Assembly (NCBI GenBank): GCA_965207445.1
Contig: CBDBLX010000002.1
Location: 864,001 to 928,000, forward strand
Direction: 5' to 3'
DNA from: Nitrosopumilus sp.
Lineage (GTDB): Archaea; Thermoproteota; Nitrososphaeria; Nitrososphaerales; Nitrosopumilaceae
Length of the DNA: 64,000 nucleotides
Each line of letters begins with the position of its first letter. The stretch's first letter is position 1. Below, one piece after another: positions 42,001 to 48,000 of the stretch. A program made the position numbers.

Positions 42001-45000
42001 CTTTTAGCAGATAATCTGCACACTTTTGTAATTCTATTATATTTGCAGTGGAATTTTTGAGCATCTTTGATTTTGATTTTGCTGTGAGATCCGATTGTAT
42101 TATCTGTATACTTACTGATTTGAATGTTTGATTGCTATCGATAACTGTATTGTGTACATCTAAGCATATTTTGTTTAGATTATCTTTTAAAAATTCATAG
42201 TCTTTGGAATCTTCACTTAGTGTGGTAATGCGACCATGTTGTAAACGCGGTTCTTTCTTCTTTACTGGCTCATTATTTATGCCTCTGGCTGCATTGTAAA
42301 TATATGTGCCATTTTTTTTCCCAAACTCTTTTGTAAACAAAAACAGATCTGGTTTTCGAAGATCGCTTATGGTTTTAAAATTTAATTCTAATAAACGATG
42401 TTCTGTCTTTTTTCCAATGTATGGTATGTCTCTTATTTTTAGTGGTTCTAGAAATGTGTCTATCTGTTCTGGCTTGACGACTGTAAGTCCGTCTGGTTTT
42501 TTAAAATCCGATGCAATTTTTGATATCATACGATTTGGTGATATGCCAATTGAACACCCTATCTTTGTTTTAATCTTTACTGCATATTTGATCTGTTGTG
42601 CTAGTTTTGCTGCCTTTTGAAAATCATGTTCGATTCGCTTACTTACATCCAAGTATGCTTCATCCCGACCTACATACTCAAACACATCTGCAAATGCACT
42701 TATCACATTCATGGACTCTTCTGATATTTGTGTATAGTAATCAAAATCTACTGGAATGAACTCTGCATCGTCTATTACACTATTGAGTTTTCGCTTTGCA
42801 AACGTTATGGGCATGCCTGATTTAACACCGTATTTTCTTGCAACATAATTTGCAGTTGCAATGGCACCACTGTCATTACCTCTATCAGAATACACACATA
42901 CACATACGGGTTTTGTTTTTAATAGTGGATTACGTATTTCTTCGCATTGTGCATAAAAATAATCAAAATCAACATGCATTACAACTCGTGATTTCATGAT
43001 ATACGTTGTGTATGACACTTTTATTTTTTTGTAGTGTATGTGTTTTAATACATGCTTATTTAATACATGCTTATTTGATACATGTTTATTTAATACATGC
43101 AACTTTTACATCATATTTTGTGTACAAACACACTCTCTTTGCTAAATTATATGCATTGTGACACATCTATTGATTTCTTGGGTAAGGTGGTGGTGATGGT
43201 ACATGAAAGAAAATAAAGACCGAACAACTACTCTTTAGTGTTGATTGTATTTTTAGTTTAGTCTAAATACTATGTGGTGTATTTGTACTTGTGGCATCTC
43301 CAGTTTACGTTGATGGAAATGGTGTAAAGTTCAATCCTGATGCAATGATGCGTGAACGGTTGTATCATTGTATATTTGATGACAAGGCAATATTGGTATT
43401 CAAAGACTCACAAGATGTGATGAATTGCTATGAGATTGAAGATCCCCCACTTGTAGAAAAAATTAGGCAATGTAATGATGATGTAGAATTAGAGGCATTA
43501 TTTGATACTTATATATCAGATATGAACCTTAATGGTTAAATAAAAGTATGTAAAGAGGTATGCAAGGTAAAAAATATGAGTAATACACGAAAACCTAGTG
43601 ACGCTGAGGAAATTTTATCTGAATTTACAAGTTCAAAATCTGATTCAAACGATACAAACAAGGATACAGATAATTCTGAATTAATCGACTCTGCACCTAA
43701 TGTTTCACCTAGTGTAATATCCTCTGAGCCATCTTCAACTAACAGTGATCAAACTCTTGAATCTAACTCACCTAATGAGCTTCATTCTTGTGCCGATTCT
43801 AACTCTTGCTCTGATGATTCTATTGTTGCTGATAAACCACCCATTGAATCAACTCCAACACCCACTGAACCAACCACAACTGAATCCTCCAATATGGGTG
43901 AACCTCAACATTCTTGTGCCGATTCTAACTCTTGCTCTGATGATTCTATTGTTGCTGATAAACCACCCATTGAATCAACTCCAACACCCACTGAACCAAC
44001 CACAACTGAATCCTCCAATATGGGTGAACCTCAACATTCTTGTGCCGATTCTAACTCTTGCTCTGATGATTCTATTGTTGCTGATAAACCACCCATTGAA
44101 TCAACTCCAACACCCACTGAACCAACACCCACTGAATCCTCCAATATGGGTGAACCTCAACATTCTTGTGCCGATTCTAACTCTTGCTCTGATGATTCTA
44201 TTGTTGCTGATAAACCACCCACTGAACCAACACCCACTGAATCCTCCAATATGGGCGAACCACAACATTCTTGTGCCGATTCTAACTCTTGCTCTGATGA
44301 TTCTATTGTTGCTGATAAACCACCCACTGAACCAACACCCACTGAATCCTCCAATATGGGCGAACCACAACATTCTTGTGCCGATTCTAACTCTTGCTCT
44401 GATGATTCTATTGTTGCTGATAAACCACCCACTGAATCAACTCCAACACCCACTGAATCCTCCAATATGGGTGAACCACAACATTCTTGTGCCGATTCTA
44501 ACTCTTGCTCTGATGATTCTATTGTTGCTGATAAACCACCCACTGAATCAACTCCAACACCCACTGAATCCTCCAATATGGGTGAACCACAACATTCTTG
44601 TGCCGATTCTAACTCTTGCTCTGATGATTCTATTGTTGCTGATAAACCACCCACTGAATCAACTCCAACACCCACTGAATCAACTCCAACACCCACTGAA
44701 TCAACTCCAACACCCACTGAACCAACACCCACTGAACCAACACCCACTGAACCAACACCCACTGAACCAACACCCACTGAACCAACACCCACTGAACCAA
44801 CTCCAACACCCACTGAACCAACACCCACTGAACCAACACCCACTGAATCCTCCAATATGGGTGAACCACAACAATCTCATGTTGATGTCACATCTGATTC
44901 TAATAATGACAAGTCCACCACTAAACCACCCCCACCCGAGCAACACTCTGAATATAGAGATGTGATATTTGTTGGAAGTAAACCAATAATGACTTATGTT

Positions 45001-48000
45001 TCTGCCGTCCTTACTCAACTTGCAAATAGAGATACAGTTACGGTCAAAGCCCGAGGTAAAAAAATCACTAATGCAGTGGATGTCTCACAAATGATCATTA
45101 AAAGAATGGATAGTGTTGGTTATGTAATATCTGATACTAGAATATCTTCTGACTCTCTCATATCAAATGATGGGAAATACCGCAACGTCTCTACAATGGA
45201 AATTGACATATCAAAAAAATAAACGTCATTATCTTACTGTTGTTGCTATTGTAATAATATCCGTTGTAATTACTACTGTGGTGTTATTTCTATCTATTGA
45301 TTCATGTGGATTAACACATCTTGAAATCTTAAATGATATTAGTACATATGAAGAAAATTTTGATCCAAATTTTTGTGCAGATTTACTTGATAAAATATAC
45401 TTGTTTAATGAATCGTGTAGACCTGTAGTTGATATAATTGATTGTGGTTAATAAATAACCTACACAAATTATTCTTAACATAATATTTGTCTTTAAAATT
45501 AATTATTTGTATGAGCATATATAATATTTTTTTAATTAAACTAATTTTACAAGAAAAATTCGTGTGAACCAACCTCTTTGGATACGATAACAATATCATA
45601 TACTTGTATTTGGTTACATCCCTGTCTGCATATTGCGTATCGTACATGCAATGCATTTGGCTAGGAGTTATTTTTGAATGATTATATTAATTATGGAATC
45701 TGGTTCACCCATATGTTTTGTTTTGTTAAGATTAAACAAAAAGATCTGTATATAATATTAAAATATTTTTATCATATATAAAAAATAAATATTTAATTAT
45801 TAAGTTAAATTAGAACAAACAAATTATAAAGATTTACTAAAAATGATTTGATGCATAAACTTGAGATATCTACTAGATACAACAATCTGCATACTGAAAA
45901 TTGTTATCTTACAACACCCACTACTATTGTATTTGATGGCATGTATGTATGTATGTGTACGCAATGACACGCAAAAGAGAAGATATTTTTATGTTAATTG
46001 ATATAGATATTGATTGACATTAACTCTTAACTAGATGATTTACGTGTTATGTGTTTAATAATTTTAATTTGTACTATTGTTAATAATAATTCATACTATT
46101 TTATGGTGCTATGATCATTATTTATTTTCTTTAATCTTTCTAATAATGCCGCATAAAGAAATGGCATAACCGTTGTGACTTCTGCATGTAATGTTGCTTG
46201 TTTTGCATTTGGCGTCACTTTTCCCCATGAAATTGCTTCTCTTACAAGCGCACCACTTAAACTACCATCAAATTCTTGTGCAGTTGTAATGTAAAATGCA
46301 TAATCTAGTCCTCCTCTGTATTGATTCCACCACAAAGTATGATGTTTTGATATTCCACCACCAATCATGAATGCACCTGATTTTTTGGCCTTGAATATAT
46401 GCTCTGATAATCGCACAGAATCTCCAATAATATTTAATTCAAAGTCGTGGTGATTTTGCGCAAACATCCAGATCTGACTACCTACTGCCCCATCCATTAT
46501 TCCTGGTACTATAACATCAATATCGTTTTTTGCAGCCCAATACAGAAATGAGTCTTCTCTCATGTGCTGACCTATCATTTTACAAATGTCTGCTGTTGTC
46601 ATCGATTTTTTGCCATTTTCATATGCCTGTGTCAAAAACTCTTGCATCTTTTTTTCTATTATTGGGCCGTAACTATCTAGTGGAACAAGTACGCTTCCGA
46701 GTCTGTGTATGTCTTGCTCTGCGAGTTGCGCATCATCCATTGTAAATGATCCTTCTTTGTATTCTGCGTAATGCCTTGCAATATCATGATCAAGTGCACC
46801 ACACGTGGTAACCATCACATCAAACCACTTTTTTTTTGCCATATCTCTGATTATGCCTCTCAACCCCGTTGAGATCACTGCTCCAACAAACGAGCAGAAT
46901 CGAAGACACTGTTTGTCTGTTATCATCTTTGATATAATTTCAAGTCCATCATGGAGATTCTTTGACTCAAAACCCCCTGATTTTGCCATTTCTGCAAATA
47001 TGCCTTCTATGCTTGTCTTGTCATTTATTGTCATATCTTTCACAGGGCCCCCTATCTCTTTTATTGGCACACTGTTCTCTATTGTCATTGTAATTTCTAT
47101 ATTCAACGTGACTATAAACGATTCTTTGTTATTTGGAATTGTAATAGTATGCACTTTTCATTCAAAAAACTCACCATACTTTTTCATATAACGTATACCT
47201 TCATATGATCTCTTTTTATTTGTAATTTAATTTATAATTTACAAACTTGATAATTTATAATAATTATTTTGCAGTGTGTAATTGTAACATACTAGCATCA
47301 ATAATGTCCAAAAATTCATTATTTTATAGCTCTATGCCAAGACTTTAAACGAGCTTTTATTATTCAACCTTATGGCAGGACGCATAAAAGTTGGACTAGT
47401 TGGTATAGGTAATTGTTTTTCAGGACTATTACAAGGAATTGAATATTATCGAAAAAACCCATCTCAACAGATCATTGGGATAATTCATGAGGAGCTTGCA
47501 GGTTATGGTATTCATGATATAGATTTTGTCTGTGGATTTGATGTGGGTGAGAATAAGATTGGAAAGACAATCAATAAGGCGATATATGCGTATCCTAACA
47601 TGGTCGACTGGATACCTGAGAATGATATGCCTTTGACTAACTCTTTGGTATATGAGAGCCCTGCACTTGATGGTGTTGGATTGTGGGTGGAAAATCGTGT
47701 CAATCCTATAAAGTCTCAAAAAACTGTTGACGAGTTAACATCTGAGATAAAACAGGTGATCAAAAGTACCGGGGCTAAAATTATTGTCTCGTATCTGCCA
47801 GTAGGATCTGATAAAGCTACAGAGTTTTGGGCACAAATGTGCCTTGATACTGGTGTAGCATTTGTAAACTGTATACCATCATTTATTGCATCAAATCCCA
47901 TTTGGGCCGAAAAGTTTACCACCAAAAATATACCCTGTATTGGTGATGATATAAAGGGGCAAGTGGGTGCTACTATTGTACATAGAACACTTGCCAAATT

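What a model noticed while it worked through the whole genome (the two positions that open the first line are those of the whole stretch)
43576..45222. Long acidic low-complexity tails on chromatin and ribosomal proteins, with a 548-aa Alba as the extreme
At least ten housekeeping proteins of this genome carry D/S/T/N/P-rich, almost lysine- and arginine-free extensions of 70 to 455 residues beside a normal conserved domain: an Alba paralogue of 548 aa (domain at 463-525; 455-residue N-terminal tail with tandem repeats, net charge -73; Alba is normally about 95 aa), eL31 (284 aa against 87; tail with a 5-residue T/D repeat, -40), uL24 (282 against 167; -34), uL4 (407 against 266; -37), uL5 (297 against 173), uL13, FKBP (402 against 231; -53), Rpo6, Rrp4 (a 28-residue repeat) and others. 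The frames are open in relatives too, but with very different lengths, so the tails are real coding sequence that expands and contracts quickly, probably by re [...]
Evidence so far: Sequences, Pfam domain limits and best Swiss-Prot partners; census of extensions of 60 aa or more beyond a fully aligned Swiss-Prot partner: 32 cases on C2, of which I count those rich in D/E/S/T/N/P; composition, net charge and repeat period. Relatives: eL31 found in 29 of 30 Nitrosopumilus genomes of 95% completeness or more, stop-to-stop frames of 83 to 281 aa against 284 here, alignment reaching only residue 82-153; the matching Alba paralogue in 20 of 20 genomes, frames of 116 to 443 aa against 560 here, while the second Alba gene (C2:581174-581446) has frames of about 96-150 aa in most.
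(Added by a program. Inside this text positions count along the whole contig: contig position 864,001 is position 1 of the stretch shown here. "Call 12" and the like, gene names such as g00115 and contig names such as C1 are that model's own, and its searches are not shown. The text may have been shortened before it was handed on; [...] marks where a part breaks off. The agent that wrote the report below was given it as the finding of a first reader that could run no searches.)

Follow-up and report, generated by a model that had tools for sequence, protein, structure and literature searches.

The report
Giant acidic repeat arm on Alba
A nucleic-acid-binding Alba protein of a marine ammonia-oxidising archaeon carries a real 455-residue acidic repeat arm tipped by a conserved short helix, the extreme case of this genome's habit of growing low-complexity tails on housekeeping proteins.

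Summary
Window 43576-45222 (+) is a 548-aa ORF. Its Alba domain lies at residues 463-525. The 455 residues before it have net charge -73 and hold eight near-identical 35-93-aa tandem units. The arm is very probably translated. In relatives the start-codon position, a TTAAATA box 40-45 nt upstream and the N-terminal peptide DAE(D/E)ILSEF are conserved. That peptide is in frame with Alba in 11 of 14 relatives, and no other start codon lies before the domain there. All 46 repeat periods found are multiples of three. Linker length runs from 39 to 444 aa.

The genome-wide claim also holds. Forty-nine ORFs carry acidic low-complexity segments of 60 aa or more, and 20 of the 40 scanned are cytoplasmic housekeeping proteins. 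Tails as such occur across the genus. The lysine-poor D/N/S/T flavour was seen only in this genome, tested on eL31 only.

Low-complexity tails on prokaryotic ribosomal proteins and chaperones are already in print. The Alba architecture of tip helix, elastic linker and partner gene was not found in print. Function is inferred, not shown. Interest is moderate.

The parts
43291..43539 (+). Gene for an 82-aa protein (YHC...FKD...NCYE.E signature) directly upstream; conserved partner of this Alba paralogue
   Evidence: ORF. A homologue lies directly upstream of Alba in all 14 relatives' loci that reach far enough, including two from other families with a short Alba. It is fused in frame to motif, linker and Alba in P0005/6/9/10/11 and P0157/170/177/182. 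No Pfam or NCBIfam family. AF2 pLDDT 86.6.
43536..43546 (+). TTAAATAAAAG box, promoter-like (TATA-type, inferred), overlapping the stop codon of the upstream gene
   Evidence: TTAAATA lies 40-45 nt before the start codon in 14 of 15 loci; the 15th has TTAATAAA at -44. No transcript data.
43576..45222 (+). 548-aa Alba paralogue ORF (stop codon included)
43576..43626 (+). Conserved N-terminus MSNTRKPSDAEEILSEF; the motif DAEEILSEF is residues 9-17 (43600-43626)
   Evidence: ATG AGT here aligns with TTG AGY in relatives. D9, A10, E11, I13, L14, S15, E16 and F17 are invariant in 12 orthologues. Predicted helical with pLDDT about 63-73 in a fused orthologue.
43783..44871 (+). Eight tandem units (residues 70-432), each HSCADSNSCSDDSIVADKPP + (T/P/E/S) run + SSNMGEPQ; two Cys and one His per unit
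   Evidence: Adjacent units are identical in pairs. The GGT/GGC and CCT/CCA variants fall on third codon positions of this frame.
44707..44847 (+). 15-nt (TPTEP) sub-array inside unit 8
   Evidence: period 15, 9.0 copies
44857..44859 (+). Last internal in-frame ATG (M428), 34-35 codons before the Alba domain; the only realistic alternative start
44962..45150 (+). Alba domain (Pfam residues 463-525; NCBIfam 461-548)
   Evidence: 71-80% identical to orthologues in 22 genus genomes

Best explanation
This is a real, fully translated gene for an Alba paralogue built in three parts.
- A conserved N-terminal amphipathic acidic helix, DAE(D/E)ILSEF.
- A disordered, K/R-poor, net-negative linker made of in-frame tandem repeats. 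Its length is reset again and again by replication slippage or unequal recombination: 39 to 444 residues among orthologues.
- A strongly conserved Alba nucleic-acid-binding domain.

In this genome the linker has grown to its known maximum by amplifying a 35-42-residue unit that carries two cysteines.

It is the extreme member of a genome-wide set of D/N/S/T-rich acidic low-complexity tails and inserts on at least 20 cytoplasmic housekeeping proteins. Most of these are best read as slippage products that persist because polar, acidic, disordered segments at exposed termini and loops do little harm.

For Alba the arm is more than filler (inferred, not shown). The linker acts as an elastic polyanionic spacer. 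It holds the tip helix at a distance from Alba-bound DNA or RNA and probably weakens or tunes nucleic-acid binding. The tip helix is a docking peptide. Its most likely partner is the ~80-aa protein encoded directly upstream, which is covalently joined to the same motif-linker-Alba chain in other lineages.
For: Translation of the arm.
- The start position is conserved (ATG AGT here, TTG AGY in 14 relatives), with TTAAATA 40-45 nt upstream in 14 of 15 loci.
- The N-terminal motif is invariant in 12 orthologues. It is in frame with Alba in 11 of 14 relatives that hold both ends, across linkers of very different length. Chance would give one in three; the rough binomial is 7e-4, and kin are not independent.
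- In the 11 in-frame relatives no ATG, GTG or TTG lies between the motif and the Alba domain; at most one TTG lies inside the conserved N-terminal peptide.
- All 46 of 46 tandem-repeat period rows in 14 loci are multiples of 3, with many different units of 6 to 150 nt.
- Public annotation already calls the long form: N. piranensis 193 aa starting MSDTRKSKDAEDILSEF (P0060), plus P0061, P0088 and P0042.

Rapid length change.
- Orthologue proteins are 143, 157, 167, 182, 190, 204, 220, 226, 232, 272, 440 and 548 aa.
- Seven or eight of 22 orthologue loci end at a contig break inside or beside the repeat.
- Two ~99% identical copies of DnaK in this assembly differ at 7 alignment columns. Six lie in the low-complexity C-terminal part: a 4-aa indel, a 1-aa indel and one substitution.

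Genome-wide set.
- 49 of 4907 crude ORFs carry 60 aa or more of acidic low-complexity sequence.
- Of the 40 scanned, 20 are cytoplasmic housekeeping proteins above Pfam cut-offs.
- uL4 and uL5 start on a TAATG overlap with the preceding operon gene. GrpE has no other start before its domain.

Link to the partner gene.
- The upstream gene is adjacent in 14 of 14 relatives' loci that reach far enough, including two other families with a short Alba.
- Nine fused proteins are on record.
- In a fused orthologue AF2 gives a confident small domain (pLDDT 91-96), a helix over the motif (63-73), a disordered linker (below 50) and a folded Alba domain.
Against: - There is no RNA or protein evidence for this genome.
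- In this genome, unlike its relatives, each repeat unit holds an in-frame ATG. The last is 34-35 codons before the domain, so a short 121-aa form is possible alone or alongside the long one.
- Three of 14 relatives have the motif out of frame with Alba: L005 (G002), L016 (G007) and L022 (G013, which has a run of N). These may be assembly errors, pseudogenes or real frame switches.
- Repeat units that are multiples of 3 keep the frame whether or not it is read, so frame-keeping alone is weaker than it looks.
- The orthologue was not found with this query in 2 of 24 genus genomes (G009, G016), so it is dispensable or was missed.
- Exact translations from the conserved start of L011, L006, L015 and of the window are not in the 15-billion-protein collection.
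- The functional half (docking helix, tuning of binding) rests on architecture and gene fusion only.
- The array's copy number rests on the assembly. Short-read contig depths of the unit (about 7-8.6 times the flanks in runs X2-X4, 7.5-13 times in X1) fit eight copies only roughly, and the tool warns that depth is no copy number.
Confidence: 0.7

Rival explanations
1. The repeat is not translated in this genome. The true product is a ~121-aa Alba starting at the last internal ATG (44857), and the array is a long leader or intergenic satellite that merely happens to be open.
For: The array is open in two + frames and on the - strand. Internal ATGs occur once per unit. Three of 14 relatives are out of frame. 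There are no expression data.
Against: The start codon, TTAAATA box and N-terminal peptide are conserved. The in-frame relatives have no alternative start. All 46 periods are multiples of 3. The unit variants GGT/GGC and CCT/CCA are synonymous in this frame. No A/T-rich box is visible inside the C/A-rich array (by eye).
Confidence: 0.1
2. The tails are adaptive as a class. They form a polyanionic brush that offsets the positive charge of nucleic-acid-binding proteins, or keeps them soluble, in the way acidic surfaces serve salt-adapted archaea. Selection, not tolerance, explains them.
For: Ribosomal proteins are prominent: 7 of the 40 scanned. Their domains are net +10 to +18 and their N-tails net -14 to -38. 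Linkers of all 12 Alba orthologues are net negative, -4 to -71. Acidic LCRs are enriched in halobacteria (PMC6821194, passages).
Against: The same kind of tail sits on already acidic proteins (GrpE, MCM and BioB domains are net -5 to -10) and on surface or secreted proteins. Tail charge far overshoots domain charge. Relatives' eL31 tails are lysine-rich, so no common charge is demanded. Sequences are not conserved and lengths drift.
Confidence: 0.25
3. The Cys/His-bearing unit (HSCADSNSCSDD, 8 copies) is a metal-binding or redox-sensing module, and its amplification in this genome is selected for that role.
For: The arm holds 16 Cys and 9 His. Typical PEPT linkers of relatives hold no Cys (0 in 11 of 11). 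Cys/His/Gly-rich stretches (CC, CGC, GHGHG) recur in linkers of fused orthologues P0006, P0009, P0010, P0011 and P0177.
Against: No known metal-binding family matches. The unit was found in no other genome or metagenome contig by exact match. Near-identity of the units shows recent amplification, which needs no selection. Cysteine is generally rare in prokaryotic LCRs (PMC6821194), so its presence is odd but unexplained.
Confidence: 0.1
4. The array length is an assembly artefact (over-expanded repeat).
For: No short-read contig spans 43813-44837. Repeats of this kind break or mis-join assemblies: 7 or 8 truncated loci, and one probably chimeric frame in L019.
Against: Both flanks are identical in four runs. 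Contig depth of the shared unit is about 7-8.6 times the flanks in X2-X4 (rough). The genome is in two contigs. Relatives reach 440 aa.
Confidence: 0.04

Closest known systems
Low-complexity regions of prokaryotic ribosomal proteins, chaperones, FtsY, SSB and TonB (Ntountoumi et al. 2019, PMC6821194; passages read)
   Same: They sit at protein termini and on housekeeping proteins (ribosomal proteins, DnaK, FtsY). In archaea T, D and P are the most enriched LCR residues. The relatives' eL31 tails (E/P/A/K) fit that paper's ribosomal A/E/K type.
   Different: In that survey the average archaeal LCR was 36 aa and the largest, among 102 proteomes, 390 aa. Here the arm is 455 aa and at least 20 housekeeping proteins in one genome carry 60-170 aa. 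The composition here is D/N/S/T with almost no K/R. Alba is not in the part of that paper's table shown in the passages read.
Bacterial SSB: OB fold + variable disordered linker + conserved acidic-hydrophobic tip (recalled from knowledge, not tested)
   Same: A nucleic-acid-binding domain, a low-complexity linker whose length and sequence vary between species, and a short conserved acidic/hydrophobic terminal peptide.
   Different: The tip is N-terminal, not C-terminal. The fold is Alba, not OB. No partner binding is shown. The linker is far longer and strongly acidic.
HMGB1-type acidic tail that folds back on a DNA-binding domain (recalled)
   Same: A strongly negative disordered segment joined to a basic architectural DNA-binding domain; the expected effect is to lower or tune binding.
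   Different: The HMGB1 tail is a short uninterrupted D/E run. Here D+E make up only 19% of a long S/P/T-rich arm.
Canonical archaeal Alba (S. acidocaldarius albA, 97 aa, pI 10.4: Table 1 of PMC7613761, passage) and eukaryotic Alba proteins with basic RGG tails (recalled)
   Same: The same domain.
   Different: This protein is 5.6 times longer, with net charge about -69 instead of basic. The extension is N-terminal and acidic rather than C-terminal and basic.
Genome-wide low-complexity inserts in housekeeping proteins of Plasmodium and Dictyostelium (recalled; PMC3140889 seen only in a search listing)
   Same: Many unrelated conserved proteins in one genome carry slippage-born polar repeats of similar flavour at termini and loops, with fast length change.
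   Different: This organism is an archaeon with 39.6% G+C. The flavour is acidic D/T/S/N rather than poly-Asn.

Membership tests
Alba (Pfam PF01918) | Domain match above the curated cut-off | tested here: met
   49.4 bits against 25, E 3.9e-13, profile positions 2-66 of 66
Alba equivalog (NCBIfam TIGR00285 / PRK04015) | Whole-protein score above the equivalog or subfamily cut-off | tested here: not met
   73.3 bits against 88.25 and 73.1 against 90. This is an Alba-domain paralogue, not the canonical AlbA by NCBI's threshold.
Alba | Beta-alpha-beta-alpha-beta-beta fold of the domain (order of elements recalled) | tested here: met
   AF2 of fused orthologue P0170 gives E210-214, H219-230, E235-242, H245-262, E264-277, E283-295 at pLDDT 70-90. 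Tested on an orthologue, not on the window's own protein.
Alba | Small (~90-100 aa), basic protein | tested here: not met
   548 aa; arm net -73, domain part net +4. Reference: 97 aa, pI 10.4 (PMC7613761 Table 1).
Tip-and-linker hub proteins (SSB-like architecture; analogy only) | Variable disordered linker between binding domain and terminus | tested here: met
   Linkers of 39-444 aa in 12 orthologues; pLDDT below 50 over the linker of P0170
Tip-and-linker hub proteins (SSB-like architecture; analogy only) | Short conserved acidic-hydrophobic terminal peptide | tested here: met
   DAE(D/E)ILSEF invariant in 12 orthologues; present in fused forms as DAE.ILSE(F/M) or DA..(I/V)Y(S/T)EY. It is N-terminal here.
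Tip-and-linker hub proteins (SSB-like architecture; analogy only) | The tip binds partner proteins | not testable with these tools
   Needs binding assays; no conclusion can be drawn from the computations run here.
Prokaryotic ribosomal-protein LCRs (PMC6821194) | Terminal position on the protein | tested here: met
   C-terminal: eL31, uL24, uS4. N-terminal: uL4, uL5, uL13, uS11.
Prokaryotic ribosomal-protein LCRs (PMC6821194) | A/E/K-dominated composition | tested here: not met
   This genome's tails are D/T/S/N-rich and K-poor. Most relatives' eL31 tails are E/P/A/K.

The most novel reading that the evidence does not exclude
The ~80-aa protein, the N-terminal helix, the elastic linker and Alba form one two-part tethered device that has not been described. 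The helix is the docking site that re-creates, without a covalent bond, the fusion seen in other lineages. The small protein is thereby held on a leash of adjustable length around Alba-coated DNA or RNA. Slippage in the linker then works as an evolutionary length dial. In this genome the Cys/His-bearing units would add metal- or redox-dependent cross-linking between arms, making the coat responsive to oxidative or copper stress.
Probability: 0.15. Interest if true: 0.7.

Novelty: new variant of a known kind. Interest (0 to 1): 0.5.

Why it matters
Alba is among the most widespread archaeal nucleic-acid-binding proteins and is usually pictured as a ~10-kDa basic protein. Here a whole family-level lineage of ammonia oxidisers carries a paralogue with a conserved tip helix, a linker of freely varying length and a conserved partner gene that is sometimes fused. 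That gives a concrete, testable entry into what this paralogue does. In mesophiles such as N. maritimus, investment in nucleoid proteins is low (PMC7613761, passages), so a purely architectural role is doubtful.

The genome as a whole is a prokaryotic counterpart of repeat-laden eukaryotic proteomes. It is a natural case for asking whether such tails are tolerated junk or useful polyanions. It also warns annotators and assemblers: these repeats break contigs, shift frames and may create chimeric 'fusions'.

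Tried and rejected
- **Complex prediction.** The small protein was folded with the 143-aa orthologue of Alba (L006), both as alignments: score 0.00 against a mark of 0.32, no verdict, controls not run. 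This is neither for nor against binding.
- **RNA evidence.** No RNA holder was listed among 5 runs. Four runs of one sample, all contigs, were laid. They cover the flanks exactly, do not span the array and show no joints or variants.
- **Fold of the 82-aa protein.** Foldseek against PDB gave best E 0.48. VIA-align wide gave best Z 3.3 among 48,161 chains. No fold was assigned, which does not show a new fold. The Atlas returned only unnamed Nitrososphaerota clusters at 0.76-0.79.
- **Families for the 82-aa protein.** Pfam at E up to 10 gave only DUF1930 at E 0.12. NCBIfam gave nothing.
- **The same motif elsewhere in the genome.** A six-frame scan found only the Alba itself and one loose match, DDILAEY, in a 119-aa frame. 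The tip is not a shared tag on other tails.
- **Exact-match scans for the Cys unit.** Zero hits in genome contigs and zero in metagenome contigs.
- **Exact look-up of long-form translations.** Not in the collection.
- **Literature.** Seven full-text searches found no paper on an extended Alba or on acidic tails in Nitrosopumilus. They found one table ranking C. symbiosum and N. maritimus highest among the archaea in the part of the table shown, for compositional order (PMC3836704), and the general LCR survey PMC6821194. No supplements were opened.
- **Considered and dropped.** A PCNA-box reading of the motif: ExxLxxFD fits only loosely, from memory, and was not tested.

Full report
**What is there**

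Window 43576-45222 (+) is a 548-aa ORF. Pfam finds one Alba domain at residues 463-525 (E 3.9e-13, 49.4 bits, cut-off 25). NCBIfam's Alba models match 461-548 but score below their equivalog cut-offs (73 against 88-90 bits). The protein is therefore an Alba-domain paralogue. The genome holds two further Alba-type frames of 99 and 124 aa.

Residues 1-455 hold 13 K, 1 R, 42 D, 45 E, 16 C and 9 H, net -73. The remainder is net +4. Tandem Repeats Finder reports periods of 126, 105, 111, 21 and 15 nt. These resolve into eight units of 42, 42, 42, 35, 35, 37, 37 and 93 aa, and neighbouring units are identical in pairs.

**Is the arm translated?**

An open frame proves nothing here, because the array is also open in a second + frame (406 aa) and on the - strand (232 aa). 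The evidence comes from relatives.

An orthologue with 71-80% identity in the domain was found in 22 of the 24 same-genus genomes drawn in a search of 41 relatives. It was not found with this query in G009 and G016. Fourteen relatives' loci hold both the domain and the upstream region. The other eight are cut by a contig end inside or next to the repeat, or, in L019, run into unrelated sequence.

- **Conserved N-terminus.** In all 14 loci and in the window the same N-terminal peptide is present, (M)S..(K/R)..(D/N)AE(D/E)ILSEF.
- **Conserved start.** Its start position is the same everywhere: TTG AGY in relatives and ATG AGT here.
- **Promoter-like box.** A TTAAATA box lies 40-45 nt upstream in 14 of 15 loci, and the 15th has TTAATAAA at -44. 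That it is a promoter element is inference.
- **Frame-keeping.** The peptide is in frame with Alba in 11 of 14 relatives, although the DNA between them ranges from about 106 to about 1230 nt.
- **No alternative start.** In the 11 in-frame relatives no ATG, GTG or TTG lies between the motif and the Alba domain. At most one TTG lies inside the conserved N-terminal peptide. There the domain can be made only by reading through the whole linker.
- **Periods.** All 46 of 46 repeat-period rows in the 14 loci are multiples of three, with many different units of 6 to 150 nt.
- **Public annotation.** NCBI records already call the long form, for example a 193-aa 'DNA-binding protein' of N. piranensis starting MSDTRKSKDAEDILSEF.

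Against this:
- Three relatives are out of frame: L005, L016, and L022, which has a run of N. In L005 and L016 the frame read from the start breaks near the end of the repeat.
- This genome, unlike the others, has an in-frame ATG in every unit. The last is 34-35 codons before the domain.
- There are no RNA or protein data.

I put the long form at about 0.85-0.9.

**How fast does it change?**

From the conserved start the orthologues are 143, 157, 167, 182, 190, 204, 220, 226, 232, 272, 440 and 548 aa. Linkers run from 39 to 444 aa. All are net negative (-4 to -71) with 3-13 K+R. The units differ between species: PEPT, PEPEPT, PEPEPQLEA, and 19- and 28-residue A/P/E units.

The window's unit was not found in any other genome or metagenome contig by exact match.

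Only 11 Alba proteins of 301 aa or more appeared in a 5.8-billion-protein search, and none was as long as this one.

The assembly itself gives a direct glimpse of the process. Contig C1 is a 96-100% identical second copy of about the first 120 kb of C2 (most blocks 98-99%). The two DnaK copies differ at 7 alignment columns, and 6 of these lie in the low-complexity C-terminal part, including in-frame indels of 4 aa and 1 aa.

**The genome-wide claim**

The census used a crude ORF set of 4907 ORFs of 80 aa or more. The filter was 40-aa windows with K+R at most 2, D+E at least 6 and D/E/S/T/N/P/Q at least 70%. It gave 49 ORFs with 60 aa or more of such sequence.

I scanned 40 of them against Pfam. 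Nine were left out: the Alba itself, four giant ORFs of 1279-3485 aa, two C1 duplicates and two short repeat ORFs at contig ends.

Thirty-two of the 40 have a family at E of 1e-4 or better. Twenty are cytoplasmic housekeeping proteins above Pfam's cut-offs:
- ribosomal proteins eL31, uL24, uS4, uS11, uL4, uL5 and uL13;
- chaperones and isomerases FKBP, cyclophilin, GrpE and DnaK;
- replication and repair proteins GINS, MCM, topoisomerase VI-B, UvrC and a helicase;
- an SRP54-type GTPase, a class I aminoacyl-tRNA synthetase, a BioB-like radical-SAM enzyme and a HAD hydrolase.

An S25-like match is below its cut-off. The rest are surface, secreted or unknown proteins.

Rpo6 (193 aa) and an Rrp4-like protein (300 aa, with a 28-residue T-rich repeat) have extensions that fell below my filter.

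- uL4 and uL5 begin on a TAATG overlap with the preceding operon gene, and any alternative start still leaves 85 aa or more of tail.
- GrpE has no other start before its domain.
- MCM starts 10 nt after the GINS stop.

**Genus or genome?**

eL31 was matched in 36 of 40 other genus genomes, and I read 29 relatives' loci. Every frame runs on past the domain, to 105-281 aa; eight are cut by a contig end and one has a run of N. Most tails are lysine-rich E/P/A/K repeats such as EEPAKEAPKK. Two (G018, G002) are T/S/P/A/E-type.

None resembles this genome's D/T/S/N, K-poor tail. Tails as such are therefore a genus trait. The strongly acidic flavour was seen only in this genome in my sample. This was tested on eL31 only.

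Directly upstream (43291-43539) lies an 82-aa gene with invariant Tyr-(His)-Cys and Cys-Tyr-Glu-x-Glu motifs. A homologue sits in the same place in all 14 relatives' loci that reach far enough. Two of these are from other families, where Alba is short (102-103 aa) and has no motif or linker.

In nine proteins from high-G+C relatives the small protein, the motif, a linker (often Cys/His/Gly-rich) and Alba form one open frame.

The small-protein family is tiny: 64 representatives among 1.84 billion, four of them fused forms of 256-323 aa. It has no Pfam or NCBIfam family. It folds confidently (pLDDT 86.6, five strands and two helices), but no PDB fold could be assigned.

In a fused orthologue AF2 gives a confident small domain, a helix over the motif at moderate confidence, a disordered linker and a folded Alba domain.

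The C-terminal helix of the small protein (DDLEKLFEDYL, EEILQEY) resembles the motif (AEDILSEF). This hints at a duplication, but I see it only by eye.

**How it most likely works**

Shown:
- The arm consists of in-frame tandem units that are gained and lost quickly.
- The tip peptide and the Alba domain are under strong constraint, while the linker's sequence and length are not.
- The linker's polar, K/R-poor, net-negative character is kept.

Inferred:
- The linker is a disordered polyanionic spacer, and the tip is a docking helix.
- Gene order and gene fusion point to the 80-aa protein as its partner.
- An arm of -73 next to a +4 domain should lower or tune nucleic-acid binding and keep coated fibres apart.

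For the other tails the simplest reading is tolerated slippage products. The same flavour occurs on basic, acidic, cytoplasmic and surface proteins alike. Sequences are not conserved.

An adaptive 'polyanion brush' remains a live rival.

**Comparison with what is known**

- LCRs on prokaryotic ribosomal proteins, DnaK, FtsY, SSB and TonB are documented. They are mostly terminal. In archaea T, D and P are the most enriched residues, the average LCR is 36 aa and the maximum in 102 proteomes was 390 aa (PMC6821194, passages).
- C. symbiosum and N. maritimus head the archaea in the part shown of a table of compositional order (PMC3836704, passage).
- The kind is therefore known. The scale in one genome, the acidic flavour and the Alba architecture are new variants.
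- Seven searches found nothing in print on an extended Alba.
- SSB (linker plus acidic tip) and HMGB1 (acidic tail) are functional analogies recalled from knowledge, not memberships.

**Verdict**

This is a new variant of a known kind. Interest is 0.5.

Noticed in passing
window 43291-43539 (+): An 82-aa protein of no known family lies directly upstream of this Alba paralogue. It is conserved there across at least three families and is fused to Alba in nine database proteins. AF2 is confident, but no PDB fold was assigned.
   Followed up: yes
P0001-P0004: Four metagenome proteins of 430-456 aa join an FtsY-type NG domain, a PEPT repeat and this Alba domain in one frame. They are either real fusions or chimeric assemblies through the shared PEPEPT repeat. 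This genome's own SRP54-type ORF (L057, 613 aa) also carries a PEPEPQQLQ repeat after its NG domain.
   Followed up: no
G007:C1:1289686-1290009 (no locus): A second Alba paralogue (44% identical) lies in a 772-aa open frame in a relative. It is longer than the window's protein if translated.
   Followed up: no
G000 contig C1 versus C2:1-120000; DnaK = L069: Contig C1 (121 kb) is a 96-100% identical second copy of the start of C2, which suggests a second strain or haplotype in the assembly and may explain the 5.5% contamination figure. Differences between the two DnaK copies cluster in the low-complexity tail.
   Followed up: partly
L005 (G002) and L016 (G007), linker region: In two near-complete relatives the conserved N-terminus is out of frame with Alba through a shift near the end of the repeat. 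This may be assembly error, a pseudogene or a real frame switch.
   Followed up: partly
L019 (G001) 1-741 after orientation: The Alba frame runs upstream through PEPEPT into an unrelated signal-peptide-like protein sequence. This is probably a chimeric contig in a 62%-complete genome.
   Followed up: no
G000:C1:803-1129 and C2:2487065-2487370 (no locus): Near-identical 21-nt tandem arrays (reading IMSESST) lie near contig ends: one 803 nt from the start of C1, the other ending about 750 nt from the end of C2.
   Followed up: no
L048 (G000:C2:1286822-1288261): A full-length serpin (Pfam E 6.8e-105) carries an N-terminal 24-residue repeat tail. Serpins are uncommon in archaea (recalled).
   Followed up: no
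L003 and L104 (G000:C2:1509890-1510714, - strand): The third Alba-type frame (124 aa) lies about 500 nt from the Rpo6 gene on the same strand. Rpo6 itself has an acidic N-terminal extension of about 110 aa.
   Followed up: no
G009 and G016: In two genus genomes of 96-99% completeness the long-Alba orthologue was not found with this query. Only the 43-49% identical paralogue matched.
   Followed up: no
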